Below are positions 7,798-61,373 of a stretch of 61,373 bases of DNA, piece by piece. Position 1 is the first letter of the stretch, and every line of letters begins with the position of its first letter. The translations under genes were made by a program, and so were the position numbers. The stretch lies in UHGV virus genome UHGV-1597594; one strand, 5' to 3'. This stretch comes from a virus. The notes below the pieces were generated by a model. The model did no database searches and was not told the origin of the DNA. It worked only from the letters and a program-made list of their open reading frames with translations.

Positions 7798-9303
7798 TTA
7801 CAATTTGATTGCGCCTCTACGAGCAAGCTCTTCTTCAATCAATCGAACATGATTGTTAGCATACCAAAATTGCAATTTTTTGTGATAATTGCGAACGTTG
7901 CCAAGCTGTTCTTGAGTTTCTTTATACATTGAAGGCTCTCTGTTGTCATACAGACAATTGTTGACTGACACAAAGTAATTTGGGTCTGCTTTGTAATGCT
8001 CGATTTCATCAGGATTTGTTAAACGTCTAATAAAGTTGTCTGGTGAAATATTCGCCGAGCGCATACTTGACGGATACAACGAGTTTGCATCAACACAGAC
8101 AACCATACGAGCCCAATGGTTAAATGGTTGCTTAACAAAGCCGCCCTCAAATGAATGTACAACGTTCTCCGGCCCACCTTGAGCACATACAACTTTACCG
8201 CCATATTTGTTGTACAAATATGTCATCATGACGCCCTCAGATTGCTTAACTGGTCCTTGACAGTGATTCATGTCAATATTTGTCATATTTGACAATGACA
8301 TCACATTTGATATCAAGTCAGTTTTTGCAGCAATCATCGCATTGACCATCGTATCGACAGCATTATATGCAATGAATGTGCATGGATGATACAAATACAG
8401 CTCTTTAAGTGTGCAATCATAGGGTAGCTTACCTACACCAAACATGCGATGTGCAATATAGTCAAGTCGCAATGACTCTTTTTGCCACACTGAATAGTCG
8501 TATGTGTCCATGAGCTGCATGTAGTCATCAATGTACTTGTGGTATGGCATACCATTGCCCCAGACAGTTCTGCCAACTGGAGATGCCAATGCCAAATCAA
8601 TATTGTGCATTGCGCATCGATTTTTGACATAGATGTTATCGAAGCCATTGATGTTCCAGCCTGTCAATGCAGGAATGTTTTTGAAGAGCTTAGTCACCCA
8701 AAAATGCAACAATTCATGCTCATTTGCATGTTGAAAGATTTTGACAGTTGGATGTTCTTTCAAATACGCAGCAAAGCAATGTTGACCCATGTACTCTTGA
8801 ATGATGCCATTGACAAACTCAAATGCATCATCCAATGTTGGGTTTTGTTTGCCGCAGCTTTTGCGCAAATCATCATCATTCAACAAGTCAACAGTAGTCT
8901 GAATGACACAATTGCATTGTTCATCGCATGTACTTATTGCGTTGATAGGCATTTCAGCTTTGTCAGGCTTTGGAAAGCCATTGCCAATTTCAGTCTCAAT
9001 ATCGTAAAAGTACAACTTTGGTCTACGATAAGCAAACAATTCAGCTTTGTCAGCTTCAGGCAATTCAAATAAGAATTGCAGCAAGTCAAATTGATTGAAT
9101 CGTTTTGCTGTGACTCGAGTCACTGGCAATTTACGCCAATCTTGAATATCTGCATATTGAGGCTCTACGTGGTCTGATATTTGCCATACTGGAAATTGAT
9201 AAGGCTGTTCACAGACTGGGTATGTTTTGATGTCAATGCCACCTTGCTCATTAACATATGAGACTTCAATGCCATGTGACAAATATGCTACGTCAACAAT
9301 CAT
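7798..9303 (-). CDS. family B DNA polymerase, N-terminal fragment (3'-5' exonuclease domain + polymerase motif A)
   Basis: ATG at 9303. FYDIETE (Exo I), WNINGFD (Exo II), YNAVDTM (Exo III), VCVDANSLYPSS (motif A, DxxSLYPS). The ORF ends about 95 aa after motif A, without motifs B or C. Confidence 0.85.
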   Translation of the reverse strand: MIVDVAYLSHGIEVSYVNEQGGIDIKTYPVCEQPYQFPVWQISDHVEPQYADIQDWRKLPVTRVTAKRFNQFDLLQFLFELPEADKAELFAYRRPKLYFYDIETEIGNGFPKPDKAEMPINAISTCDEQCNCVIQTTVDLLNDDDLRKSCGKQNPTLDDAFEFVNGIIQEYMGQHCFAAYLKEHPTVKIFQHANEHELLHFWVTKLFKNIPALTGWNINGFDNIYVKNRCAMHNIDLALASPVGRTVWGNGMPYHKYIDDYMQLMDTYDYSVWQKESLRLDYIAHRMFGVGKLPYDCTLKELYLYHPCTFIAYNAVDTMVNAMIAAKTDLISNVMSLSNMTNIDMNHCQGPVKQSEGVMMTYLYNKYGGKVVCAQGGPENVVHSFEGGFVKQPFNHWARMVVCVDANSLYPSSMRSANISPDNFIRRLTNPDEIEHYKADPNYFVSVNNCLYDNREPSMYKETQEQLGNVRNYHKKLQFWYANNHVRLIEEELARRGAIKL

Positions 9304-10345: not shown

Positions 10346-10651
10346 TCAAGAGTAGCATTTGATGCTTTGATTGCGCTCATTGACAAAGTGTATGCCATTT
10401 GACTGCACCTTGACAATGTCATAGCAATTCAAATGCCCATTGCTGTCAATAAATTTCTGCAGCCAGTTTAAGGCCATGATATTTGTTGCAAATGTCTGTG
10501 CAAATGCAATTTGACCATCTGCAAATGCTGCTGTGTATGTCTTGTTCTTATCGTAGATTGGCAGTGTTGCATCTGCATATGATGATGCTACAAATGCATA
10601 CCCAATTACGTTATTCTCAGAACTTAAATTAGAGTGTCTCAACTGTTCCAT
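10346..10651 (-). CDS. hypothetical protein
   Basis: 101-aa ORF in the tiling path; no motif. Confidence 0.4.
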   Translation of the reverse strand: MEQLRHSNLSSENNVIGYAFVASSYADATLPIYDKNKTYTAAFADGQIAFAQTFATNIMALNWLQKFIDSNGHLNCYDIVKVQSNGIHFVNERNQSIKCYS

Positions 10652-11383: not shown

Positions 11384-11589
11384 CTTATTTATGATTTGAT
11401 GTCTTGTATTTATATTATATGTTGATATTGTACAACGCTAAGTGTCATTTTGCACTGTCGCCACCAATTTTTATTGATGGTGTTGCAAACAATGCAAGCA
11501 AACACCAGCCACTTTTAGTGACTGCACAAGCAACTGCTATTGCAGCAAAGAAGCTTGCATAAATGATTGCTGCAGCAAGCCAACTTGTT

Positions 11590-17134: not shown

Positions 17135-18028
17135 CTATGTCAATGCAATGAAGACGTCACCAGACTGTTCAGCTTCAAGCTCTTTTTCGACTTGTTGTTG
17201 CATTGTTTGACCTTTTGATGCAAGCCGGTCAAAGTTAATGCGAACATTGCCGGGCAACTTGAAGTCATATGTGCCAATGATATCTGCAAGCTCTTGCATG
17301 CATTGACCTGTGCAGTATCTCAAGAAACGTCTGTCTTCATACAATGATTGCAGCGGCACTCTTACCCAACACATCAACACCAAATCAGACCCTTCATTAT
17401 CACCAAGAACGTTCAGCTTATGACTAAATCTGTTGAAGTTATACGTGATTGTTCGTTGCAAAATGCTTTCATACGTGCCAATTTCATACATTGTCACCCA
17501 CAAGTCATCTGCAATTGATGCATTTTGAGAACCTGCAGGTCCAGCGTAGTTAAATGACACGCCATTCGCTTCACTATAAAAGTTAATTGAGTTGCTGAGC
17601 AGTCGTTCAAGATAAAAGTTTGCGCGCCGCATTGACAACTTATGTTGCGATTCAAGTAGTTGAACGTCTGATACAGCCCAAATTTGTGGCGGCAATTTGA
17701 CAATTTTGTTTGCGCCATCAGTCATGTCAATATTGCGAACAACAAACCAACGCTCTTCAAGAGCAGACTCAGAATGTTCAAAAAACCATTCTGCGCAAGT
17801 CTCAATGATTTGTGGCATACGAGTCTTCGGAATTGCAAATGGCAATGCGCAGCCTCGTGTGACTTCTTGTACAAGTCGCTCAATGAATCGCAAATCTACA
17901 CTGTAGTCATATCGAGAATTGATATTTTCGACTTCAGGCTTATTGCAATCATTTGTTGTTGCGCCTTCAACTTTCCAAGAAGTTGCGCCATCATTGAATT
18001 CTGCTTGTGGTTTGCGATTGACTTTCAT
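17135..18028 (-). CDS. hypothetical protein
   Basis: ATG at 18028; 297 aa; no motif. Confidence 0.6.
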   Translation of the reverse strand: MKVNRKPQAEFNDGATSWKVEGATTNDCNKPEVENINSRYDYSVDLRFIERLVQEVTRGCALPFAIPKTRMPQIIETCAEWFFEHSESALEERWFVVRNIDMTDGANKIVKLPPQIWAVSDVQLLESQHKLSMRRANFYLERLLSNSINFYSEANGVSFNYAGPAGSQNASIADDLWVTMYEIGTYESILQRTITYNFNRFSHKLNVLGDNEGSDLVLMCWVRVPLQSLYEDRRFLRYCTGQCMQELADIIGTYDFKLPGNVRINFDRLASKGQTMQQQVEKELEAEQSGDVFIALT

Positions 18029-18033
18029 AGAGT

Positions 18034-18513
18034 TTATCTTACAACAAGTTGAATGATCGGATTATTGTACACGTCCATTTTGAATAAGTCTTCGCCAGCT
18101 GTCATTAGCAATGCATCAAGAACCGCATTGCCAATGGGTGAATTCATAAACATTGACGTGCTATTAAGTGCCAATTCAGCCAAATACGTTGAAATGTCTA
18201 CATTGTCACCAGGTCGCATTTCCTGACGTATATAATAAGGATCGTTTGGATTATCCAAGTAATCATTCCAGCCAAAACCATCGGGCTGCTTAGTATAAGC
18301 AATATCAGTAAAACCAAGCTGTGCTCTATTATCATTGTCAAGTAACTTGTACCAAACTTGGCCATCAGCAGATACCATGTAGTTTGATGGCACAGTTAAG
18401 TTGTACTTTGATTTTGCTTGTGCAGCAGTTAATACGCCGCTTTCAAATGTGAAGCCAGCTGTTGCATGCATAGCATTTTGTGCTCTGTAATGTTCTTGAG
18501 TTACATGTGACAT
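18034..18513 (-). CDS. tail-fibre-like protein, paralog A (shared N-terminus MSxVTQ(E/D)HYRxQNA)
   Basis: ATG at 18513 gives MSHVTQEHYRAQNA..., matching the N-terminus of CDS 18582-19091; the C-terminal parts diverge. The tail-fibre role is inferred from the conserved-N/variable-C pattern and the neighbourhood. Confidence 0.6.
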   Translation of the reverse strand: MSHVTQEHYRAQNAMHATAGFTFESGVLTAAQAKSKYNLTVPSNYMVSADGQVWYKLLDNDNRAQLGFTDIAYTKQPDGFGWNDYLDNPNDPYYIRQEMRPGDNVDISTYLAELALNSTSMFMNSPIGNAVLDALLMTAGEDLFKMDVYNNPIIQLVVR

Positions 18514-18514
18514 A

Positions 18515-18570
18515 TATCTGAGTTTTTGAATGATTTGCAATAATTGACTTGCAAATCATTCAAAAACTCA
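18515..18570. promoter_or_regulatory. 56-bp perfect hairpin (24-bp arms, 8-nt loop) abutting the start codon of CDS 18034-18513
   Basis: tctgagtttttgaatgatttgcaa-taattgac-ttgcaaatcattcaaaaactcaga; the arms are exact reverse complements. Confidence 0.7.
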
Positions 18571-18581
18571 GATTTGCAAGC

Positions 18582-19091
18582 TTAATATGCGCATTGTATG
18601 CGATTAACTATTTCTGTATCGCCATCGCCAAAATACACATTGTGTTTAATGTTGTTTGTTATGTCTGTCAATACAGCTGTGCCATACCAGGTAATTTCTA
18701 CGTAGCGATTTAACGCTTCGTTAAGCAATGCATCGCTAAATTCCCAATTGTAAGCATTGCTAAATCTAAATGTGCAATCTTGAGAATAGCCTGGCACCAA
18801 TGTAATGGGCGCATTTGCAACGCATTTTAATGTGTTGCCTGCGGCAGATGTAAAAACAACTTCAAGTTGTACTTGAATGTTTTGCTTTGACTTATTTGTT
18901 AAACTTTGCACATCAATGTACAAAGATGATGCATTAACTGAAATGTTGTCATCAACTTTGTTATATGTGCAATTGCCAAAGTACATATCGCCATTTATCC
19001 AGCCTTCAGTCGTAATGGCATCTTCAGGCTTTATTACAGAACCCCCCCCCGCGTTTTGCGAACGATAGTGGTCTTGAGTTACACGTGACAT
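18582..19091 (-). CDS. tail-fibre-like protein, paralog B, with in-frame G9 tract near the N-terminus
   Basis: ATG at 19091 (MSRVTQDHYRSQNAGGGSV...); the GGG codons are a run of 9 G on the coding strand. Confidence 0.65.
   Translation of the reverse strand: MSRVTQDHYRSQNAGGGSVIKPEDAITTEGWINGDMYFGNCTYNKVDDNISVNASSLYIDVQSLTNKSKQNIQVQLEVVFTSAAGNTLKCVANAPITLVPGYSQDCTFRFSNAYNWEFSDALLNEALNRYVEITWYGTAVLTDITNNIKHNVYFGDGDTEIVNRIQCAY
19042..19050 (-). repeat. homopolymeric tract, C9 on plus strand = G9 on coding strand
   Basis: accccccccc at 19041-19050, inside codons 15-17 of CDS 18582-19091. Confidence 0.9.
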
Positions 19092-19117
19092 ATGAGTCTC
19101 ATTTTTATTGTATTTGT

Positions 19118-19162
19118 TTATCTATCAACTTGTGATTATCTCTATCTATCAACTTATGATTG
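19118..19162. repeat. two 19-bp direct repeats (tatctatcaactt(g/a)tgatt) in the upstream region of the tail-fibre-like gene
   Basis: Copies at 19118-19136 and 19144-19162, in non-coding sequence between 19091 and 19194. Confidence 0.7.
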
Positions 19163-19193
19163 TCTGTCTCTTATCAAAAGCTGCGCCATTGAC

Positions 19194-19805
19194 TTACGGT
19201 GCCACAATTGGTCCACCGCCAGGCAGACTTGAGCATGTTTGCATGTACAAGTACAACAAGTCGCCAATGTTCTGCATAATGTTTGCAAACATAAGTGCAA
19301 TGCCTCGCAAATCTGCTTCGCCTTCAAATGTGTTGATAAATGCTTGCTGAGCGCATGCAAACATTACTGGCACAGTCGATGCACTTGTCATTGCTATCAC
19401 AGGTCCGCCAGGCGACAAGGGCAACACCGGTGGCGATGCTGGCACAGTTAAGTTTGTCGGAATCCATGCTGCAACTGCTGCAGCATAAGGCTTAAAGCCG
19501 TTGCCAAACTTTATTGCAATGTTCTTTGGGTCTACTTCACCTTGAAATGTTTCTATAAGTGCTTGCCTGCCTGCTTCAAATAGAGAGCGCTCAAGTGTAG
19601 CAGTTGGACCTGCAATTATTGGACCACCGACAGGCAAACCTGCGCAAGTTGCAATGTAGCTTGCTACACCTGTAGCAAACAATTGACTGAATTTGTTGGC
19701 AAACTTTGTCGCAATTTGCGGTCTATCAAGCTCACCTTGAAAAGTTGCAGTGTATGCTTGATACGCAATGGGCTGCACAGCAGCTTGCAATGTAGCACCT
19801 GGCAT
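19194..19805 (-). CDS. hypothetical protein with three ~60-aa internal repeats
   Basis: Repeats containing TFQGE(L/V)D...IA(T/I)KF(A/G)N and LP(V/G)GGPI(I/V)A; start taken at an internal Met (MPGATLQ) to avoid overlap; start uncertain. Confidence 0.5.
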   Translation of the reverse strand: MPGATLQAAVQPIAYQAYTATFQGELDRPQIATKFANKFSQLFATGVASYIATCAGLPVGGPIIAGPTATLERSLFEAGRQALIETFQGEVDPKNIAIKFGNGFKPYAAAVAAWIPTNLTVPASPPVLPLSPGGPVIAMTSASTVPVMFACAQQAFINTFEGEADLRGIALMFANIMQNIGDLLYLYMQTCSSLPGGGPIVAP

Positions 19806-50529: not shown

Positions 50530-52125
50530 TCAAAGCTTGAATTTTTGCACATTTGTATCTACTGGCATCTTTTCAGCGTCATATATTCGTTTTCGAGCAG
50601 CAAAATGCTGCATGTCATAATTGCAGTAGCAGTAGCCTTTGCGAAGCTTGACAAGCATATCACTGTGAATTGTAAGCTTATGCGCAATATCAATAATGAT
50701 TGCTTTCTGCTTAAGTGGATGCTTACGCAACAGTCGCCCAATTGACTGCAATGTTACGTTGTCAGATTTGCCAATCATCAAGAATGCAGCGTAAAACCAA
50801 GCATGCACAGATACACCTGTAGACAAGGTGCCAGTAGTTGCAATCATGATGTGTCTGTCAGGCTCTGCTTCCATCATTGCTAGCATATCTTTGCGTTCAT
50901 GCAAGGGTACATCACCTCTAATGATGTGAACAACCTTGTCAACACCAGACTGCTGTATGAATGTTTGGCAAGCGTCATAGATGTTCTGCACATGGTCTCG
51001 TCGTTTGCAAAGCACAAGAGCATTTTTGTCAAGCGAACAAATGATTTTTGCAATGAGCTTGTTAGCATCGACGTAGTTCATGCAATGATGTTGTTCTGCT
51101 GGAAGCAGTCTTGCAGTGTTATCAAACACTTCAGGATGCTCTTCAAGATACTGCACAAATGGCGCATCATATTCTGCTGAATGCTCAATGACTACTCGTT
51201 TGATTTCAAAGTCAGACACGATGTTCTTTTCGAGTGCTTGAGCTACACCAAATGTACCCAATATTGGTCCAATGTATGATTCAATTGTCAAACGAGCTGC
51301 AGTATGCTCAAGTGGCAATGAACCAGATACGCCAAGACGATAATGTGCTTTTGTACAATGACTGAAGATTTCACGAATTGACGCTGCAGGCGCACCATGA
51401 GCTTCATCAGTTACAATGAAGTCGAACTGTTCGAAAAAGTCTGCTGGCATGTTGACAAGACTTTGATATGTGCCAACAACCATATCTGCATCTTGCATTT
51501 TGTATTCATTGCGAACACCTGAATGGATTTTGTAGAGTTTGTAATTCTTGTTTGCTAAATCTGACTCATTTTGTTGATAGCTGACAACAATATCGTCAAA
51601 CGCTTGTGACACGAGATGCACCGAGGGCACAATCATAAGTGTCTTGCCATTGATTCTCTTGCTGTCTTTTAAGAAGCGACTAATTACATAAACAAGAGCT
51701 GTTTTGCCATAAGAAGTCGCAAGGCGCAAACAACATTTCTTGAATTTGCAAGCAGTCAAAATAAACTTGAGCTGGTCGTCACGCATATCAAATGGCATAT
51801 CAAGGCATTCTGACCATTGCTCAAGCTCTTCAAGCGACACAATGCGATCAAAGTTGTCAATGAGGCCTTCAATCTTGACTTCGTATGGAATTGGCTTACG
51901 CAATTGCAAGTCCCAGATACGCTTCCATAAGCCAAATGGCAAATACACACCATTGAACACATAGCAAATTTGCCCATTCCAATCTGTTTTGCGCCCTTTG
52001 CGCTTATTGACTGCTGCTGCAACAAAGTTCGGTACTTCTGCAGTAGCTTCAGCGTATAATTGCTTGACTTCCAAATCATTTGCTTCGACAATTTGAAGCA
52101 AATCACCTATGACTTTGAGTCTCAT
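50530..52125 (-). CDS. superfamily-2 DEAH-box helicase
   Basis: Track start 52161 is TTG inside the terminator hairpin; the first ATG (MRLKVIGD) is at 52125. Walker A LATSYGKTA, DEAH box FIVTDEAHGAP, motif VI-like ATTGTLSTGVSV. Confidence 0.75.
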   Translation of the reverse strand: MRLKVIGDLLQIVEANDLEVKQLYAEATAEVPNFVAAAVNKRKGRKTDWNGQICYVFNGVYLPFGLWKRIWDLQLRKPIPYEVKIEGLIDNFDRIVSLEELEQWSECLDMPFDMRDDQLKFILTACKFKKCCLRLATSYGKTALVYVISRFLKDSKRINGKTLMIVPSVHLVSQAFDDIVVSYQQNESDLANKNYKLYKIHSGVRNEYKMQDADMVVGTYQSLVNMPADFFEQFDFIVTDEAHGAPAASIREIFSHCTKAHYRLGVSGSLPLEHTAARLTIESYIGPILGTFGVAQALEKNIVSDFEIKRVVIEHSAEYDAPFVQYLEEHPEVFDNTARLLPAEQHHCMNYVDANKLIAKIICSLDKNALVLCKRRDHVQNIYDACQTFIQQSGVDKVVHIIRGDVPLHERKDMLAMMEAEPDRHIMIATTGTLSTGVSVHAWFYAAFLMIGKSDNVTLQSIGRLLRKHPLKQKAIIIDIAHKLTIHSDMLVKLRKGYCYCNYDMQHFAARKRIYDAEKMPVDTNVQKFKL

Positions 52126-52142
52126 GACATGACTTGTTAAAT

Positions 52143-52181
52143 GAAAAAGAGGCTCAGACAAACAATGTCTGTCTGAGCCTC
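52143..52181 (-). terminator. intrinsic terminator downstream of CDS 52207-53337
   Basis: Perfect 12-bp stem gaggctcagaca/tgtctgagcctc with 9-nt loop; A-run 52143-52148 gives a T-run on the minus transcript. Confidence 0.65.
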
Positions 52182-52206: not shown

Positions 52207-53337
52207 CTACTTGAGCCCGTTGATGAATGCTTCAGTTTCAGCATCCATCGTTGCTGCTGCAGGTGCTGCTGCCGGAGCTGCTGCAGGTGCAGGCTCTGCT
52301 GCAGGCGCTGAAGCTGCTGCAAACGGGTCAATGGCTGTCTGAGCTGCTGGTGCAGTAGCAGGCGCAGCTGCCTGAGCTGTTGCAGGTGCAGGCTGAGTAG
52401 TCTGTGCCTGCTGAGCTGCTGACGGATTGATGACAATGTCAGGCCAGATATCCGACGCATCCTTGTAGTTAGCAAGGCGCATCTTAACCTGACGCTTAAT
52501 GTCATCAGAAGCTTCATGGTAACCCCACTCCTTTTCGACATTCGGGTACTCCTTGAGCATGTCGACAATCTGCTGCATGATTTGCTGCTTGTATGCAGGG
52601 TCAGTGTCATACTTCGCCTGATCAACAAGGGTGCCATCTGCAAGCAGCATCGACGATACGTTGGGCGAAATCGTCGAAGTCTCGTAGTCACGCATTTCAA
52701 CGCCATTGACGTCTTTCAGCGTAATCTTCAAGAGAATGTCGTGGCCCTTAACGGGATGGAACATGTCCATAGGCTGAGCGCCCATCTGGATGTCTTCGTC
52801 GGTTGGCTTCATTGCAGACATGCAACGCTTGTAGATGGCTGCAGGGAGTCGATATGGAAGTACTTTCCCAACGTTCTCAGTGTGCACTGAATCAGCTTTG
52901 ATTTGAACGAGGCAAGTGTACTGACTCTGCATACTGAACTCTCGCTTTGCAAGCGCTTCCTGCTGAGCATCCTTGGTATTGATGAGTTCCCAGTAGAATG
53001 CTGAAATGGGACACCATCCATAGGGTTTCATCAAATTTTCCGGATTTTCAGGATGCGGATTCGGTGAGCTCGGCGAATTGTAGCGGAAGCCCTGATTAGC
53101 GCCAGTCCCAAACCAGTAGTAACGGACGATTGAAATCGGCACCGCGGGGTCATTCAAGTTCGGCAGAATTCGAATGACTGCTCGATAGATTCGGTCCTTA
53201 CTTTCGGAAGGCTTAGGATTAAAAAACTCAGGTCCTGCAGAACGTTCCGGCTTAGCAAAGCTTGCTACATTGTCCGGCTGGACATCAAAGATTGACAGCG
53301 GCTGATTACCGGTCTGTCCATTTTCAATTTGTGACAT
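52207..53337 (-). CDS. hypothetical protein with Ala/Pro-rich low-complexity C-terminal region
   Basis: ATG at 53337. C-terminal ~70 aa are (A/P/T/Q)-rich (..PAPATAQAAAPATAPAAQ..APAAAPAAAPAAA..). Confidence 0.6.
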   Translation of the reverse strand: MSQIENGQTGNQPLSIFDVQPDNVASFAKPERSAGPEFFNPKPSESKDRIYRAVIRILPNLNDPAVPISIVRYYWFGTGANQGFRYNSPSSPNPHPENPENLMKPYGWCPISAFYWELINTKDAQQEALAKREFSMQSQYTCLVQIKADSVHTENVGKVLPYRLPAAIYKRCMSAMKPTDEDIQMGAQPMDMFHPVKGHDILLKITLKDVNGVEMRDYETSTISPNVSSMLLADGTLVDQAKYDTDPAYKQQIMQQIVDMLKEYPNVEKEWGYHEASDDIKRQVKMRLANYKDASDIWPDIVINPSAAQQAQTTQPAPATAQAAAPATAPAAQTAIDPFAAASAPAAEPAPAAAPAAAPAAATMDAETEAFINGLK

Positions 53338-54629: not shown

Positions 54630-55385
54630 TCATTTCACTTCAGGTTTTGCTTGCTTGGCCAACTCAGCTTCGGCATTGAACTCTTTGCCCTCAGCTTTCA
54701 TTGTTTCAGCATAAGTCTTTTCGTCAGTGTAACGTTCTACGTCATTACCAAGCAGTTTTGCGACTTCGTCATCTGCTTCAAACAATGGCTGTGGATTGTC
54801 ATCATTATCATCTTTGAGTTGCTCAAATGCGCCGTTGTGTTTTTCTGCAATTTTGATAAGGTCTACGATTGAACGAGTTACGAGTTCACCATTGATGCCT
54901 GACTGCTGTTCAGATTGACCAGAGCCTTGTTGCAATTCTGCTTGAGTTGCTCGAACATTATTATTGAGTGACGCAACTATATTGGGAAGAGTTCGACAAT
55001 ACGCTATATATTGCTGAACCAACGACATTGCGTCATTCTGCAGTTTGATGAGAAATGCAAACTCACCCATGCCACCGCCTTGTGCATCAATGCGCTCGAA
55101 CACTGAATCAAGTGCATGCATTGCATAAAACACTTGTTTGCAAAGCAAATTGATGTTTGTCTTCTCCATCTCAATTGATGCATCGATAAATGGCGACTTA
55201 ACATCTGCTGCTATGCACAATTTGCGAACTTCATCAACGTATTTTGAACACTTGTCAAGTGTCTTGTCAAGTTTGCTTCGGTCAAACTGCTTGTAAACTT
55301 CTAACGCATCGCTTACTTCTGCAGCATCCAATATTGCATTTGCTGCAGCCAATTCTGATTCTCTGCTCATCTCAAAATGGTCCAA
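54630..55385 (-). CDS. hypothetical acidic protein
   Basis: 251-aa ORF; no motif. Confidence 0.55.
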   Translation of the reverse strand: MDHFEMSRESELAAANAILDAAEVSDALEVYKQFDRSKLDKTLDKCSKYVDEVRKLCIAADVKSPFIDASIEMEKTNINLLCKQVFYAMHALDSVFERIDAQGGGMGEFAFLIKLQNDAMSLVQQYIAYCRTLPNIVASLNNNVRATQAELQQGSGQSEQQSGINGELVTRSIVDLIKIAEKHNGAFEQLKDDNDDNPQPLFEADDEVAKLLGNDVERYTDEKTYAETMKAEGKEFNAEAELAKQAKPEVK

Positions 55386-55981
55386 GCTTCAATGATTGCT
55401 GAAAAATCTTCAAAGGGCATTGTAGTGTAGCCGGAATCACCCCAAGATATGCCCCAGCTATTCTTGATGATGAATGAGTCTTTTGTATAGCCGACAATTG
55501 ACACTGCATGGCCACCAAAATTGCCATCGCCTTTCCAAAAATGCTCAGCTTCAATGTCTTTTACGAGCATGCCAACAAATACAGGCCCATTTGCCACAAC
55601 AGCAGATTTGACTTCATCAATTGTGTAACAACGTCTGTATGCAGTTATTGGCAATTGTTCTGTGCCCTTTGACATCTTAATTGGCTGTGCTTTGAGCAGC
55701 TTAAAGACGTCACGTGGAATCATGCCCTCTTGAGGCGCATTTGAACGACGCTCATACAATGCTTTGATGTCAAGTTTGCCTTGCATAGACAACACAGAAG
55801 ACCACCAGTCAATCATTGTTGCAGCTGTGTAAGCTGCACACATTGATGTGCTGCCTTGGTCTTCTACTTGAAGTTGAGCCAACTTGTACACAAGTGGCAA
55901 ATCAGTTTTTGCATCAAAACGCAAGTCTCTGTCATCTTTAGGTGACTGGATGTAGCCCAGTCCATATGTTGTATGTTTCAT
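55367..55981 (-). CDS. papain-like (C1-family-like) cysteine peptidase, candidate endolysin/peptidase
   Basis: ATG at 55981. QGSTSMCAAYTAA (Cys nucleophile region), GGHAVSIVGY (His region) and KNSWGISWGDSGY (Asn/Trp region) are in the order typical of papain-family peptidases. Confidence 0.65.
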   Translation of the reverse strand: MKHTTYGLGYIQSPKDDRDLRFDAKTDLPLVYKLAQLQVEDQGSTSMCAAYTAATMIDWWSSVLSMQGKLDIKALYERRSNAPQEGMIPRDVFKLLKAQPIKMSKGTEQLPITAYRRCYTIDEVKSAVVANGPVFVGMLVKDIEAEHFWKGDGNFGGHAVSIVGYTKDSFIIKNSWGISWGDSGYTTMPFEDFSAIIEAWTILR

Positions 55982-58737: not shown

Positions 58738-59217
58738 TTATTCATTATCGTCATCATATCCCATGCAATCTTCAAGACTTGCAAAGTCATCATCAAAGTC
58801 ATCGAATTCAGGCTCTTTATTGCACCATTTGTAAGGTGGATTGTTGAGCAATTCAAGCTCTATTGCATTTGACTGTGCAGAAATCGGAACATATTCGAAT
58901 GCTTCGACTGACATGTCAAATTTGATGCAATGCAGCCACGGAAACATATCAGTGTCTTCATGCACAATTGGCTGACGAACATAGTCTTTCATTGCAATGA
59001 ACTTGCTGCCGTTGTCCCAGTCTTTTACAGGAATTTCAAATTGCGATATGACAGTATGACAGCTTTCAAAGAAATTGCAGGATACACCTACAATAACATG
59101 AGAGTCTGTACGTTGGCGTTCTATTGCAAGAAAGTCATGTTTCTTGGAAAGACGAACTTCTCCATGTTTCTCTAAGAAGATTTTAAGAAGTTCTTTGTTA
59201 ATGTCGTTGATGTTCAT
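58738..59217 (-). CDS. hypothetical protein
   Basis: 159-aa ORF, preceded upstream by the promoter-like box at 59250-59288. Confidence 0.5.
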   Translation of the reverse strand: MNINDINKELLKIFLEKHGEVRLSKKHDFLAIERQRTDSHVIVGVSCNFFESCHTVISQFEIPVKDWDNGSKFIAMKDYVRQPIVHEDTDMFPWLHCIKFDMSVEAFEYVPISAQSNAIELELLNNPPYKWCNKEPEFDDFDDDFASLEDCMGYDDDNE

Positions 59218-59382
59218 TGTTGTAGAGATTTTTGTGTACTATATTGATATATGATAATTGTACTACAAAAATCACAAATTTGCACTGATTTGATATATAA
59301 TATGTCAATAAATTTCACATACAAAAGTCTTTTCGCTTATGAAAACTACTCAACTCTGGTTTGAACGCCAGCAGTCAATCGC

Positions 59383-59389
59383 GGGGGGG
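59383..59389 (+). repeat. G7 homopolymeric tract between an upstream ATG (59339) and the downstream ORF
   Basis: gcgggggggc at 59381-59390. Confidence 0.9.
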
Positions 59390-59463
59390 CTCTTCGTGAC
59401 ACTATTATTAGCGGTACTATCAACAAAGCAGATGGTTCACTACTTGAAGCTGCATATGCAACT

Positions 59464-60117
59464 ATGCAAGAAGTCGAATGCTATGATGCTGACACTGGTG
59501 AATTCTTAGCAGGCTCACCTATCACAGTGCAGCCAAATGGCATGCCAACATATAAGTTGACAATTCCTGCAAACAGGCTTGGTGCAGGTGCATTGTCAAT
59601 TTGTTCAGTGTATCTTGATAATGTCAGTGTAAATGACTGTCTACGTTATGGCACTGGCTCCACTTTATATTGCTATGCAGGTCAAGGTGAGACGCTTGAT
59701 AATGTCAATTTGACATGTGGTGATACACTTGCATGCTTACCCTGGATTCACGAAATTCATAGAGGCGATTCAGAGACAAATGAACAACGCATAGCAATTG
59801 TGCTTGATGGCATTGAACATTTTTGCACTGATGAAGACATTCAGCTACTTGCATCGACATTGTCACACCCATTAGAATCATTTGGAGATGACAAAGTGTT
59901 TGCAGGCAAGCCTACGTACTATGACAATTGCTTTGCTGAATGGCTAATGCTCAATGATTTTCAAGCAGGCAACATGGTCGATACGTCTGTCACTGACTGC
60001 ATTTTGCTTATTGCAAATGACCCAGTAGTTGGCAATGACATCTTGATTACTCTTGAGCACATCACATCAGCGTTCAACTTCAATATGTATGACATGACAA
60101 ACTGGAATATGCTGTAA
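59464..60117 (+). CDS. hypothetical protein; full-length form probably starts at ATG 59339 in the +1 frame across the G7 tract
   Basis: ORF-track ORF starts at an internal Met; reading from ATG 59339 with one extra G in the tract gives a stop-free, in-frame extension (MKTTQLWFERQQSIAGGALRDTIISGTINKADGSLLEAAYAT-MQEVE...). Confidence 0.6.
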   Translation: MQEVECYDADTGEFLAGSPITVQPNGMPTYKLTIPANRLGAGALSICSVYLDNVSVNDCLRYGTGSTLYCYAGQGETLDNVNLTCGDTLACLPWIHEIHRGDSETNEQRIAIVLDGIEHFCTDEDIQLLASTLSHPLESFGDDKVFAGKPTYYDNCFAEWLMLNDFQAGNMVDTSVTDCILLIANDPVVGNDILITLEHITSAFNFNMYDMTNWNML

Positions 60118-60237: not shown

Positions 60238-60702
60238 TCAAATACCAATGTATATTGCGTATTCTGATGTTTTGATATCATCAGCGTCAAATTCAATTTC
60301 ACCATAGTTTTCATCACCTTGTGTTGCTATGATATGTGTAGCAAGCTTAACTTCATCATAGTACAAATCATAGAACACTTGCGTGCCTTTGTAAATTGTG
60401 ATAGCTGTGTTATTATCATACAACACTGGCGTCACTGTTTTAACAGGACCAACTTCTTGTGGCAAGGCCCTATCAAGAAATGTCAGTCTAATTGGTGTAG
60501 TGTACCGAGTATAAATATGCACGGTGAACTGCTTTAACAGCTTTCTTTGTTGGAGGGCTTGTTGTGCCCCCCCCCCAGTTACGAGGGATTTGCATATGAA
60601 TTGAGTTTTTGAAGTGAGTTGAGTTTTGATGCAAGATGCAAAACAACTAAGATGTTGTTTTGATATGTACATATGGGCAGTCAAAATATATAAAACAAAC
60701 AA
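60238..60702 (-). CDS. hypothetical protein with G10 tract near the 5' end; N-terminal boundary unreliable
   Basis: GGG codons (VTGGGAQQ) are the 10-nt homopolymer at 60567-60576; the 42 aa upstream look non-protein-like; an ATG (atgcaaatccctcgtaactgg) just upstream of the tract is out of frame by one. Confidence 0.4.
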   Translation of the reverse strand: MFVLYILTAHMYISKQHLSCFASCIKTQLTSKTQFICKSLVTGGGAQQALQQRKLLKQFTVHIYTRYTTPIRLTFLDRALPQEVGPVKTVTPVLYDNNTAITIYKGTQVFYDLYYDEVKLATHIIATQGDENYGEIEFDADDIKTSEYAIYIGI

Positions 60703-60760
60703 TTTAATAATTTGAAAAACTCATAAGCTTTATGACATTCAAATTGAACTGGGGGGGGGG
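60567..60760. repeat. 14-bp inverted repeat with homopolymers (C10-agtt ... aact-G10) flanking a ~170-bp AT-rich segment
   Basis: ccccccccccagtt at 60567-60580 and aactgggggggggg at 60747-60760 are exact reverse complements. Confidence 0.85.
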
Positions 60761-60869
60761 TCACATATCTGGCTCAATCTCTTGTTGTAACGTAGGTGAC
60801 ATTGCATTCGATGAAAAGTTTGCAGTGTTGCTTTCATGTCACATTGCATAACTTAAAACATCGAAACAT

Positions 60870-61277
60870 ATGGCAGTTCAAACACGTTCGGTACTCAAGA
60901 CATATTTTGAAACCGGAGATAAACCCACCTCAGCACAATTTGGCGACCTCATTGATAGTGCGTTGATGGCGAAAGCAACGCTTGAATCTGCGTCATTTAA
61001 TGCAGTCGCAAACACAGTGCATAATATAACGACATCGTCAGCAATAACATGCACATTGTCAAACTTAACATATGGCGAATCATGTGTTATTAATCGAGTA
61101 GGCAATGCGACAGTTTGCAATGCGACAACAACATTTGCATTCAATAATGGGCCATTGTACTATGCAGCGGGCTACTCAGATGTATCAGCAGATGCTACGG
61201 GTGCAATGTCATATGCAATTCTTATTGCAGGTAACACAACTCGTTGGGTGTTAATCAATCGCGCTTTCTACAAATAG
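60870..61277 (+). CDS. hypothetical protein (N-terminus MAVQTR shared with the next gene)
   Basis: ATG at 60870; 135 aa. Confidence 0.55.
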   Translation: MAVQTRSVLKTYFETGDKPTSAQFGDLIDSALMAKATLESASFNAVANTVHNITTSSAITCTLSNLTYGESCVINRVGNATVCNATTTFAFNNGPLYYAAGYSDVSADATGAMSYAILIAGNTTRWVLINRAFYK

Positions 61278-61354
61278 CAGACATACTTGAATGAAATTGT
61301 TCGAGCTTGTCTGCAATACAAATAACAGACAAACTTCAAACAATTTCTCATACT

Positions 61355-61373
61355 ATGGCTGTACAAACAAGAA
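61355..61373 (+). CDS. partial CDS, 5' end only; begins MAVQTR like CDS 60870-61277
   Basis: atggctgtacaaacaaga at 61355 encodes MAVQTR; truncated by the window end. Confidence 0.35.

What the first reader, a model, noticed from the sequence alone, without database searches (positions are those of the whole stretch)
18034..19091. Two gene pairs with conserved N-terminus and divergent body (candidate receptor-binding protein cassettes)
MSxVTQ(E/D)HYRxQNA begins both 18034-18513 and 18582-19091, and MAVQTR begins both 60870-61277 and the partial gene at 61355. A conserved N-terminal anchor with a variable distal domain is the usual architecture of exchangeable tail fibres or spikes, and these are also the genes associated with the homopolymer tracts.
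Basis: inference. Interest (0 to 1): 0.5.

Follow-up and report, generated by a model that had tools for sequence, protein, structure and literature searches.

The report
Poly-G-switched phage gene cassettes, shared leader
Two small neighbouring phage genes share only a 14-residue start followed by a run of G bases, and related phages show that this start-plus-G-run sits in front of interchangeable, unrelated proteins and probably works as an on/off switch, much like the variable surface genes of some bacteria.

Summary
Both genes are on the minus strand. A is 18034-18513 and B is 18582-19091. They share 11 of their first 14 residues and nothing else. The window is part of a ~175 kb PAU-like jumbo myovirus.

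In close relatives the flanking genes are 96-99% identical, yet this slot holds B+A, A alone, or the same leader on two further unrelated bodies. The leader peptide is conserved despite synonymous codon changes.

In B the leader runs straight into a G9 tract. The genome otherwise avoids GG, so about 0.0003 such runs are expected and three are present. Other tracts differ in length between near-identical genomes, and one difference switches a gene on or off (G10 here, G9 in L017).

A's body has 46-48% identical homologues in crAss-like phages. These sit in arrays of "MIKQFIxQN + G8-12 + body" genes, where orthologues with identical flanks differ only in G count (13 in frame, 15 out).

So these are leader-linked poly-G contingency cassettes. 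The closest known case is the Campylobacter Fletchervirus phase-variable receptor-binding genes. A receptor-binding role here is plausible but unproven: structure models failed, and the only fold clue is a lipoyl-like domain in A. The MAVQTR genes are full-length paralogues lying in a perfect inverted repeat.

The parts
18582..19091 (-). Gene B (169 aa): leader MSRVTQDHYRSQNA, then GGG encoded by the G9 tract, then body B. It is in frame (ON) in this window.
   Evidence: Homologues are 81-89% identical and come only from close metagenomic relatives. No family or structure hit. AF2 pLDDT 29.
19042..19050 (-). Poly-G tract (G9) at codons 14-17 of gene B. Candidate slipped-strand switch.
   Evidence: Expected number of G/C runs >=9 in the window is 3e-4. 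In relatives the tract reads G9, G6, G6TGG, G7TG, GGTGGTGGGGCG or GGGAGGGGGGCG, always in frame.
19050..19091 (-). Leader of gene B (codons 1-14).
18034..18513 (-). Gene A (159 aa): leader MSHVTQEHYRAQNA plus body A. No G tract here; the L001 homologue has a degenerate GGGTGGGGGCGG instead.
   Evidence: Remote homologues P0021, P0026 and P0032, and C-terminal domains of P0029 and P0030. Homologues 46-48% identical inside crAss-like poly-G arrays.
18472..18513 (-). Leader of gene A (codons 1-14).
18079..18252 (-). Lipoyl/biotinyl-like hybrid-barrel domain of A (about residues 88-145). The lipoyl-lysine position is not lysine (AELALNSTS).
   Evidence: Profile A6 against PDB E2 lipoyl domains, E=7e-10. 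Pfam Biotin_lipoyl is above cut-off in P0029. Alignment.
18514..18581 (-). Intergenic region between B and A containing a perfect 25-bp-stem hairpin that ends just before the ATG of A.
   Evidence: RNA fold -41 kcal/mol, z=-8.9. The hairpin is also present in L009.
17135..18028 (-). T4 gp13-like neck (head-tail adaptor) gene, starting 5 nt after the stop of A. It marks the conserved downstream border of the variable slot.
   Evidence: phrog_211. PF26809 Phage_T4_gp13 precomputed on homologues. 96-99% identical across relatives.
19194..19805 (-). Conserved 203-aa protein with three internal repeats (FQGExD...IAxKFANxF...GGPI). It marks the upstream border of the slot.
   Evidence: 91-95% identical across relatives. 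No family hit.
59339..60117 (+). Second leader family: ATG 59339 MKTTQLWFERQQSIAGG, then G7 (59383-59389), then a body whose frame is open through the tract. It is annotated as a 217-aa ORF from ATG 59464. Out of frame here; G8 would give a 259-aa protein.
   Evidence: Five of six substitutions between the tract and ATG 59464 are synonymous in the body frame. The same leader plus 'ALRDT' sits in front of other bodies in L018. G6 in L017 versus G7 elsewhere.
60238..60595 (-). Gene with mini-leader MQIPRNW (ATG 60595), then G10 (60567-60576), then a 110-aa body. It is out of frame at G10 in the window and in frame at G9 in L017.
60732..60851 (+). 39-codon upstream ORF MTFKLNW + G10 (60751-60760), ending 18 nt before the MAVQTR gene. 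The tract and its AACT/CACA flanks form an inverted copy of the 60567-60576 tract. G7 in L018, which keeps the same frame.
60870..61277 (+). MAVQTR paralogue 1 (135 aa).
61255..61373 (+). Left arm (truncated by the window end) of a perfect 189-bp inverted repeat. The arm holds the end of paralogue 1, the spacer and the first 89 nt of paralogue 2. Paralogue 2 starts at 61355.
   Evidence: L007 arms 10386-10574 / 11397-11585, 100% complementary. Coordinate offset.

Best explanation
A and B belong to a family of small accessory phage genes with three parts. First comes a short constant N-terminal leader peptide (MS[HR]VTQ[DE]HYR[SA]QN). Second comes a glycine stretch encoded by a poly-G tract. 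Third comes an exchangeable, fast-evolving body.

Shown:
- The leader is the only shared part, and it is kept by selection on the peptide.
- Bodies are swapped, lost or pseudogenised between otherwise near-identical genomes.
- One deletion (L015) joins B's upstream region and a B-type leader start directly to A's body. This fits recombination between the two leader copies.

Strongly supported by comparison, but not shown at read level:
- The poly-G tract is a hypermutable switch. Gain or loss of one G during replication moves the body out of or into frame with the leader ATG, so each phage lineage expresses a changing subset of cassettes, as in contingency loci used for bet-hedging.
- In this window B is ON (G9, in frame). 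A has lost its tract and is constitutive. Two other leader/poly-G genes (59339 and 60595) are OFF.

Inferred:
- The products act at the phage-host interface. Most likely they are displayed on the virion, and the leader is the constant piece that docks them to a common partner. The position directly upstream of the gp13-like neck gene is where T4 has fibritin and Fletchervirus has a 'tail fiber' gene.
- This would make them functional analogues of the phase-variable receptor-binding proteins of Campylobacter Fletchervirus phages.

The confidence given applies to the cassette-plus-switch reading as a whole. The cassette architecture alone is about 0.9, the poly-G switch about 0.75, and the virion-display or receptor-binding role about 0.4.
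For: Architecture and exchange.
- Only residues 1-14 are shared. Four body types (A, B, B'/B'', C) share only the leader.
- Slot content differs while the hub-like and gp13-like flanks stay 96-99% identical.
- B' (L001, read as a fusion) and B'' (L016, naturally in frame) are 36% identical over their full length, E=5e-38.
- L015 carries B's upstream region and a B-type leader start joined to the A body.

Peptide-level selection.
- Residues are invariant through synonymous codon turnover in both clades.

The tracts are not neutral.
- P(G|G)=0.078. The only G/C runs of 5 or more are C5, G7, C9, C10 and G10. Expected runs >=9 number 3e-4, observed three. All four long tracts (G7 and longer) lie 20-45 nt after an ATG.

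Length polymorphism with identical flanks.
- 59383: G7 versus G6. 60567: G10 versus G9, which changes OFF to ON. 60751: G10 versus G7.
- In crAss-like phages, orthologues with identical leader and 3' flank differ only in G count: G11 ON (L023, L040), G10 OFF (L031), G9 OFF (L026); G9 ON (L025) versus G10 OFF (L030). Overall 13 ON and 15 OFF among 28 tracts with bodies of 80 aa or more.

Homology linking the clades.
- The A body is 46-48% identical to genes inside those arrays.
- Remote homologues start MGKPFISQN... and MIKLFISQNNGGG....

Known analogue checked directly.
- Fletchervirus NCTC12673 gp113, gp115/114 and gp116 share a ~30-aa N-terminus followed by G9 or G11. One is ON and one is OFF in the reference.
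- The function of such tracts is cited (Sorensen 2021).

Synteny with the neck gene. The leader occurs only at this slot in the ~175 kb genome 152288, the contig of L016.
Against: - For gene B itself, no out-of-frame tract variant was seen. All nine relatives examined are in frame, and several have the tract interrupted by substitutions.
- The one out-of-frame leader/body pair in this leader family (L001/L002) has the same G7 as its in-frame homologue in L016. It is more simply explained by a 1-nt deletion just 3' of the tract.
- All length differences are between assembled consensus sequences. Homopolymer miscalls cannot be excluded without reads.
- Leader family 2 is out of frame in all five instances seen. 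That fits a permanent need for frameshifting as well as it fits an OFF state.
- Nothing shows that the products are in the virion. No RBP-like fold was found and AF2 failed.
- Related leaders occur both in a myovirus and in crAss-like podoviruses. This is awkward for a leader that docks to one specific virion protein.
- A and B are often disrupted in relatives: A in L004, L009 and L015, and B in L011. They are therefore dispensable.
Confidence: 0.6

Rival explanations
1. The cassettes are not virion adhesins. They are intracellular or injected effectors such as anti-defence or host-takeover proteins. The leader is a short targeting signal, like the ~10-residue capsid-targeting sequence shared by the hypervariable T4 internal proteins. 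Poly-G switching diversifies the effector repertoire.
For: - The overall architecture matches: a ~10-15-residue constant N-terminus on unrelated small bodies, in tandem, in a plastic region.
- A carries a lipoyl-domain look-alike lacking the modified lysine. That could act as a decoy for a host enzyme.
- The genes are dispensable and often pseudogenised.
- Phage contingency loci that evade host defence are documented in T2/T4.
- Leaders are shared by a myovirus and by podoviruses.
Against: - The leader has no T4-type protease site ([LI]-x-E). Position 7 is D in B, and the crAss-like leaders contain no acidic residue.
- The slot lies between baseplate-hub-like and neck genes on the same strand. 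A ends 5 nt before the neck gene.
- The A-type domain forms the C-terminus of 427-461-aa beta-rich proteins, one with a weak Ig-like hit. That is more typical of surface proteins.
- Sequence composition suggests the bodies are beta-rich, but no confident structure is available.
Confidence: 0.2
2. The G tracts are sites of programmed recoding rather than heritable DNA switches. Ribosomal -1/+1 frameshifting or RNA-polymerase slippage would yield a fixed mixture of short and full-length products in every infected cell.
For: - Leader family 2 is out of frame in every genome seen. In the G7 state the body lies in the -1 frame, downstream of a perfect G_GGG_GGG slippery heptamer.
- The region after the tract evolves as coding sequence in the shifted frame.
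Against: - The required shift differs between copies and genomes: -1 at G7, +1 at G6 in L017, and +1 for the third L018 copy.
- In the crAss-like clade the same gene is found in frame or in either other frame, depending only on G count.
- No conserved downstream stimulatory structure was looked for or noticed.
- Tract length itself varies between near-identical genomes, which is the signature of DNA slippage.
Confidence: 0.12
3. Nothing functional links the genes. A and B are remnants of a local duplication whose 5' ends have not yet diverged or are homogenised by gene conversion. The homopolymers are neutral or are assembly artefacts.
For: - The shared stretch in the window is only 14 residues.
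- All comparison sequences are metagenome assemblies.
- B's tract is always in frame.
Against: - Five of the 14 leader codons differ synonymously between A and B, so there has been no recent conversion, yet the residues are kept.
- The leader heads four unrelated bodies, and a related leader is found in another phage order.
- G/C runs are otherwise purged from the genome.
- The tracts always sit just after a start codon.
Confidence: 0.04

Closest known systems
Phase-variable poly-G receptor-binding protein genes of Campylobacter Fletchervirus phages (Sorensen et al. 2021, Cell Rep 35:109214; genes gp113-gp116 of NCTC12673 examined here)
   Same: Both have tandem small genes with a conserved N-terminus followed by a G9-G11 tract that encodes GGG, then a variable body. 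In-frame and out-of-frame copies sit side by side in one genome. Phages using such tracts to vary RBPs is established (cited).
   Different: - The Fletchervirus constant part is ~30 aa and its bodies are homologous to each other at 36-42% identity. Here the leader is 9-14 aa and the bodies are unrelated.
- There is no sequence similarity between the two systems.
- The host phylum is probably Bacteroidota rather than Campylobacterota.
- RBP function is untested here.
Bacterial contingency loci with the repeat inside the leader-coding region, for example Neisseria opa genes (own knowledge)
   Same: Both have many paralogous loci with a conserved N-terminal leader that contains a slippage-prone repeat, variable mature parts, most copies OFF at any time, and recombination between copies.
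   Different: Opa uses a CTCTT pentamer inside a cleaved signal peptide of outer-membrane proteins. Here the repeat is a mononucleotide G run after a non-hydrophobic leader, in a virus.
Contingency loci in T-even and other coliphages (Gomez, Barrick & Waters 2025, bioRxiv 10.1101/2025.10.21.683753)
   Same: Homopolymer slippage gives reversible frameshifts and bet-hedging in phage genes.
   Different: Those are short A/T-rich runs (>=6) scattered through ordinary genes. They are under-represented in tail fibres and have no dedicated leader or cassette organisation.
T4 internal proteins with the N-terminal capsid-targeting sequence (own knowledge)
   Same: A ~10-residue constant N-terminus on unrelated small proteins, encoded in a hyperplastic region.
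   Different: There is no protease cleavage motif in the leader. There is no poly-G in the T4 genes. The location here is between baseplate-hub-like and neck genes.
Invertible tail-fibre segments (Mu G, P1 C) and shufflons (own knowledge; Mu cited)
   Same: The MAVQTR cluster lies in a perfect 189-bp inverted repeat that includes the 5' ends of two convergent paralogues. The segment between two inverted copies of leader 2 is found in both orientations in near-identical genomes.
   Different: No invertase gene was found near it. Each arm carries a complete 5' end, so inversion does not obviously change which protein is made.
Lipoyl/biotinyl attachment domain (Pfam PF00364, single hybrid motif)
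   Same: Residues ~88-145 of A align with E2 lipoyl domains through the GDxV...AE(L/I)xTDxxS...P motif, E=7e-10.
   Different: The modified lysine is replaced by N, R, Y or G in all family members, so it cannot be a lipoyl carrier.

Membership tests
Phage poly-G contingency (phase-variable) genes, Fletchervirus type | A G run of 7 or more inside the 5' part of the ORF | tested here: met
   B has G9 at codons 14-17. A has no tract in the window.
Phage poly-G contingency (phase-variable) genes, Fletchervirus type | Tract length differs between closely related genomes with identical flanks and changes the reading frame | tested here: inconclusive
   Met for the window tract at 60567-60576 (G10 OFF versus G9 ON in L017) and for crAss-like orthologues. 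For gene B, only in-frame variants were seen.
Phage poly-G contingency (phase-variable) genes, Fletchervirus type | Mixed tract lengths within one phage population (read level), reversible on passage | not testable with these tools
   Only assembled consensus sequences are available.
Phage poly-G contingency (phase-variable) genes, Fletchervirus type | The product is a receptor-binding protein | not testable with these tools
   No isolate and no proteomics. No RBP-like family hit.
Tail fibre / tailspike with conserved N-terminal anchor and swapped distal domain | The N-terminus is conserved while the distal part is replaced among related phages | tested here: met
Tail fibre / tailspike with conserved N-terminal anchor and swapped distal domain | Recognisable fibre or spike fold or family (beta-helix, collagen-like, gp37/gp12-like and similar) | tested here: not met
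   No Pfam, PHROG, PDB or phage tblastn hit. AF2 models had pLDDT 29 and 40.
Tail fibre / tailspike with conserved N-terminal anchor and swapped distal domain | Encoded in the tail, baseplate or neck module | tested here: met
   The slot lies between a baseplate-hub-like gene (phrog_37871) and a gp13-like neck gene (phrog_211 / PF26809) on the same strand. The same slot is variable in PAU and MA9V-1.
Tail fibre / tailspike with conserved N-terminal anchor and swapped distal domain | Present in purified virions | not testable with these tools
   No data.
T4-type internal proteins (capsid-targeting sequence) | The leader ends in a prohead-protease site ([LI]-x-E) | tested here: not met
   The leader is MS[HR]VTQ[DE]HYR[SA]QN, and the crAss-like leader MIKQFIxQN has no acidic residue.
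Lipoyl/biotinyl attachment domain (PF00364) | Sequence match to the domain | tested here: met
   Profile A6 against PDB E2 lipoyl domains, E=7e-10. Pfam hit of 23.2 bits against a 22.1-bit cut-off in P0029. No Pfam hit for the window protein alone.
Lipoyl/biotinyl attachment domain (PF00364) | Conserved modifiable lysine in the (E/D)TDK hairpin | tested here: not met
   The position is N in window A, and R, Y or G in remote homologues.
Invertase-driven tail-fibre switch (Mu G / P1 C) | Inverted repeats flanking alternative 3' gene parts | tested here: met
   A perfect 189-bp inverted repeat around the bodies of MAVQTR paralogues 2 and 3.
Invertase-driven tail-fibre switch (Mu G / P1 C) | Adjacent site-specific invertase gene | tested here: not met
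   No recombinase domain in the eight window ORFs upstream. The L007 gene list shows none. The rest of the genome was not searched.

The most novel reading that the evidence does not exclude
Gut phages of two unrelated orders carry the same type of element: PAU-like ~175 kb myoviruses and large TGA-recoded crAss-like phages. The element is a short selected leader peptide ([FY][IR][SA]QN-type), a poly-G switch and a freely exchangeable body. It is present in up to nine copies per 11 kb, with about half of the copies OFF in any genome. In this phage it is combined with DNA inversion between leader-containing inverted repeats.

This would be a dedicated, horizontally spreading phase-variation system for host-interaction proteins. 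It would be a viral counterpart of the Neisseria opa or Campylobacter phasome, with the leader acting as a universal adaptor peptide.
Probability: 0.35. Interest if true: 0.85.

Novelty: new variant of a known kind. Interest (0 to 1): 0.68.

Why it matters
Phase variation by poly-G tracts in phage genes has been shown experimentally only for Campylobacter Fletchervirus phages. A 2025 review still calls that case exceptional.

Here the same logic appears in uncultured gut phages of a different host phylum. BACON-domain genes and Bacteroidota-phage relatives suggest the host is Bacteroidota. The form is also more modular: a very short leader under peptide-level selection, unrelated bodies, arrays of copies, and sharing between a jumbo myovirus lineage and crAss-like phages.

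If confirmed, three things follow:
- Single consensus genomes of such phages misreport which host-interaction genes are expressed.
- Gene callers split or miss these genes, as seen with the 217-aa and 144-aa ORFs here and with several metagenome gene calls.
- The host range of abundant gut phages may be a population-level, switchable trait.

The leader motif plus G run is also a simple search handle for finding such loci in metagenomes.

Tried and rejected
- Nucleotide and protein searches of A and B against 50,697 phage records found nothing.
- Pfam and PHROG scans of A, B, the MAVQTR protein, the 217-aa and 144-aa proteins and five crAss-like bodies found nothing.
- AlphaFold2 on shallow alignments of A and B gave pLDDT 40 and 29, so no fold search was attempted.
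- The search for homologues of the L001 B' body found only itself. Its in-frame homologue came instead from IMG/VR synteny.
- The JGI metagenome scan with the leader pattern returned one relevant locus (L006) and one chance hit.
- The first exact leader pattern missed the IMG/VR copies because of synonymous changes. A degenerate pattern found them.
- A profile of gp13-like proteins retrieved only genomes already known.
- The genome-contig scan gave 29 hits. Only L066, a mis-binned phage contig, belongs to the family, so there was no host clue.
- I first read the L001 out-of-frame B' as a poly-G OFF state. Comparison with L016 shows equal G7 counts and a 1-nt difference just downstream, so I do not count it as tract variation.
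- A T4-like capsid-targeting signal was considered and ranked lower because there is no cleavage motif.
- A uniform -1 programmed frameshift was considered and ranked lower because the required shift differs between copies.
- Hits of the A profile to Calx-beta, CUB and SLH giant proteins (P0027, P0033-P0035) were judged spurious repeat matches.
Full report
**What is in the window**

The two genes of the finding are on the minus strand. A is 18034-18513 (159 aa) and B is 18582-19091 (169 aa). BLASTP aligns residues 1-14 with 11 identities (MSHVTQEHYRAQNA versus MSRVTQDHYRSQNA) and nothing else. At the DNA level the similarity runs from about -4 to +42 relative to the ATG. The motif occurs only twice in the six-frame translation of the window.

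In B the leader is followed immediately by nine G (window 19042-19050), which encode GGG.

A perfect 25-bp-stem hairpin fills the 68-nt gap between B and A (-41 kcal/mol, z=-8.9). A ends 5 nt before the next gene.

**Genomic setting**

The window is part of a large myovirus. Its 1113-aa protein is 23-31% identical to proteins of Chryseobacterium phages MA9V-1 and MA9V-2, Sphingomonas phage PAU, Tenacibaculum jumbo phages and Lak phages. Two IMG/VR contigs of 175.6 and 174.6 kb are close relatives.

The genes around the finding are as follows.
- Downstream of A lies a T4 gp13-like neck (head-tail adaptor) gene, matching phrog_211 and PF26809.
- Upstream of B lie a conserved 203-aa protein with three internal repeats, a 94-aa membrane-like protein, and a baseplate-hub-like protein matching phrog_37871.
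- In PAU and MA9V-1 the interval between the hub-like and gp13-like genes holds different genes. The slot is therefore variable across the whole phage group.

**The slot is a cassette site**

Homologues of A and B exist only in close metagenomic relatives. I fetched eleven related loci. In all of them the hub-like and gp13-like proteins are 96-99% identical to the window and the repeat protein is 91-95% identical. A ranges from 59% to 98% identity, and B is 83-92% identical, replaced, or absent.

| Loci | Content of the slot |
|---|---|
| window and seven other loci | B+A |
| L008 | A only |
| L001 / L002 | leader followed by an unrelated body B', plus an A that is 59% identical |
| L016 | leader + new body C and leader + B'', no A |
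| L015 | B's upstream region and a B-type leader start joined directly to the A body |

The L015 arrangement is what recombination between the two leader copies would produce. That copy also has a nonsense codon at position 7.

A, B, B'/B'' and C share only the first 13-19 residues. B' read as a fusion and the naturally in-frame B'' are 36% identical over their whole length (E=5e-38), so the fusion is the real protein.

Disrupted copies are frequent: A is frameshifted in L004 and L009, and B in L011. The flanking genes are always intact.

A degenerate back-translated leader pattern finds the leader nowhere else in the ~175 kb genome 152288, the contig of L016.

**The leader is selected as a peptide**

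Across ten distinct leader DNA sequences, residues M1, S2, V4, T5, H8, R10, Q12 and N13 are invariant, yet their codons turn over. R10 is encoded by CGT, CGC, AGA and AGG. H8 uses CAC and CAT, and N13 uses AAC and AAT. This rules out recent gene conversion and a purely RNA-level element.

**The G tracts**

The window avoids GG and CC: P(G|G)=0.078 and P(C|C)=0.115. Apart from one C5, the only G/C runs of five or more are G7 (59383-59389), C9 (19042-19050), C10 (60567-60576) and G10 (60751-60760). A first-order model expects 3e-4 runs of nine or more. Each of these four tracts lies 20-45 nt after an ATG.

- **59339.** A second leader, MKTTQLWFERQQSIAGG, precedes G7. The frame of the annotated 217-aa ORF (59464-60117) is open back through the tract. 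Five of the six substitutions seen between the tract and ATG 59464 in three genomes are synonymous in that frame (about p=0.02). The protein therefore most likely starts at the leader and is out of frame here. G8 would give 259 aa. L018 carries three copies of this leader with three different bodies. In two of them the conserved sequence continues across the tract as ALRDT in the shifted frame.
- **60595 (minus strand).** A seven-codon leader, MQIPRNW, precedes G10. The body is out of frame in the window and in L007, and in frame at G9 in L017, with identical flanks.
- **60751.** This tract lies in a 39-codon upstream ORF that ends 18 nt before the first MAVQTR gene. It is G10 in three genomes and G7 in L018.
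- **59383.** This tract is G7 in three genomes and G6 in L017.

So three of the four window tracts differ in length between near-identical genomes. The fourth, in B, shows G9, G6 and several substituted versions in relatives, all of them in frame.

The one out-of-frame member of the MSxVTQ family (L001/L002) has the same G7 as its in-frame homologue. It is better explained by a 1-nt loss just 3' of the tract. I do not count it as tract variation.

**A wider family**

An HMM search with the A alignment found true remote homologues among 1.84 billion representative proteins.
- P0021 starts MGKPFISQNITLATGG.
- P0026 and P0032 are further stand-alone homologues.
- P0029 (427 aa) and P0030 (461 aa, starting MIKLFISQNNGGG) carry the A-type module at their C-terminus.

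Their contigs have 31% GC and read TGA as Trp. L020 has nine G9-G11 tracts in 11.5 kb. Most follow a mini-leader M[IN]K[QL]F[IM]xQN and precede a 100-356-aa ORF in another frame.

A pattern scan of IMG/VR found 20 more loci in contigs of 24-178 kb. Their large lysin-domain protein is 42% identical to the 'morphogenesis protein' of crAss-like phage cr108_1.

In these loci, orthologous genes with identical leader and identical 3' flank differ only in G count and hence in frame.
- One orthologue group: G11 ON in L023 and L040, G10 OFF in L031, G9 OFF in L026.
- Another group: G9 ON in L025, G10 OFF in L030.
- One leader variant is joined to two different bodies (L029 and L037 versus L035).
- Of 28 tracts with bodies of at least 80 aa, 13 are in frame and 15 are not.

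The crAss-like leader is also conserved as a peptide through synonymous changes. The window's A body is 46-48% identical to genes inside these arrays, while no other window protein matches them. The bodies have no Pfam or PHROG hit.

**What the products are**

AlphaFold2 gave no usable model.

With remote homologues added, the profile of A matches E2 lipoyl domains in the PDB at E=7e-10, over residues ~88-145. The match runs through the motif GDxV...AE(L/I)xTDxxS...P, but the lipoylated lysine is replaced in every member. A therefore contains a lipoyl-like hybrid barrel that cannot carry lipoate. B and the other bodies remain unassigned.

**Comparison with the known case**

I read the genome of Fletchervirus NCTC12673 directly. 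It has two G tracts of seven or more. G11 lies in gp116 and is in frame. G9 splits gp115 from gp114 and is out of frame. Together with gp113, these tandem genes share a ~30-residue N-terminus that ends in GGG encoded by the tract, and their bodies are 36-42% identical to each other.

Sorensen et al. 2021 reported that such tracts make receptor-binding proteins phase variable (cited). From memory, that paper also noted poly-G tracts in many phage genera.

In that phage a 'tail fiber protein' gene also sits directly upstream of the gp13-like gene, as wac does in T4 (own knowledge). A occupies the same position here.

The present system has the same logic but differs in four ways: a much shorter leader, unrelated bodies, multi-copy arrays, and presence in two phage orders.

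**The MAVQTR pair**

L007 extends the window and shows four paralogues: two on each strand, convergent. They align along their whole length, with a conserved N-terminus of 30 residues and a conserved C-terminal LVNRAxY.

A perfect 189-bp inverted repeat contains the end of gene 1, the spacer and the first 89 nt of gene 2, mirrored for genes 4 and 3. The window ends inside this repeat, which explains the contig break.

The N-terminal 30 residues match a 635-aa 'structural protein' at the end of the tail region of Flavobacterium phages, and a 179-aa protein next to a BACON-domain gene in crAss-like phage cr127_1.

**Verdict**

The cassette idea is right. The missing element was the poly-G switch directly behind the leader. 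The receptor-binding role is a reasonable inference from the analogue and from synteny, but it is unproven. Read-level data on tract lengths and virion proteomics are the decisive tests.

Noticed in passing
window 59291-59402 and L018 5827-5926 / 8854-9057; L007 8422-8533: The segment that starts with leader 2 and the 217-aa gene is joined to different left flanks in near-identical genomes. In L007, L017 and L018 the flank is BACON-type genes. In the window it is the 159-aa gene 58738-59217. In L018 the window-type flank lies beyond a second, inverted copy of leader 2. A segment of about 3 kb or more, bounded by leader-containing inverted repeats, therefore occurs in both orientations. L007 and the window are 100% identical over 2,083 bp on the shared side. 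No recombinase was found in the eight ORFs upstream.
   Followed up: partly
window 61255-61373 (L007 10386-10574 and 11397-11585): A perfect 189-bp inverted repeat spans the 5' ends of two convergent MAVQTR paralogues. The window, and probably the original contig, ends inside it. Other paralogue N-termini are only 76% identical at the DNA level, so the two arms are being homogenised, or the 822-bp segment between them inverts.
   Followed up: partly
whole window: GG and CC dinucleotides are strongly depleted: P(G|G)=0.078 and P(C|C)=0.115 at 40% GC. There are no G/C runs of length 6 or 8 and only one of length 5. The cause is not examined; it could be restriction avoidance, DNA modification, or selection against slippage.
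   Followed up: no
window 19194-19805 (-): A conserved 203-aa protein directly upstream of the cassettes has three ~65-residue internal repeats (FQGExD..IAxKFANxF...LPxGGPI) and no family hit. It is a candidate partner for the leader peptides, but this is pure speculation.
   Followed up: no
window 19092-19180 (- strand, upstream of gene B): Two direct copies of ATCA(T/C)AAGTTGATAGATA lie upstream of B's start codon. They may be promoter or operator elements. The same upstream region is retained in L015, where B's body is deleted.
   Followed up: no
L017 7000-7110 versus window 60600-60680: A 34-nt unit (CATCAAAACAACATCTTAGTTGTTTTGCATCTTG) upstream of the MQIPRNW leader is present once in the window and three times in tandem in L017. 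The long ORF called there (60238-60702 from TTG, or from ATG 60672) is therefore probably not the real N-terminus.
   Followed up: partly
L007 2676-8347: Three genes (1442, 199 and 204 aa) share another conserved N-terminus, MAKPxWLxxSPxSGxGNxxxxxxAxAHTGR, which is BACON-like with only a faint Pfam hit. This is a third example of a shared N-terminal module in this phage and a hint that the host is Bacteroidota.
   Followed up: no
L019, L020, L023-L042: The crAss-like contigs that carry the poly-G arrays read TGA as Trp: in-frame TGA occurs at conserved W positions of P0030 and P0021. They also hold a second mini-leader family, MAIT(Y/L)..., followed by G8-G11 and ~104-aa bodies.
   Followed up: partly
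window 55367-55981 (-): A 204-aa protein has a papain-family cysteine protease domain (PF00112, E=6e-10). Nearby are a gp32-like ssDNA-binding protein (52207-53337) and a DEAD/ResIII helicase (50530-52161).
   Followed up: no
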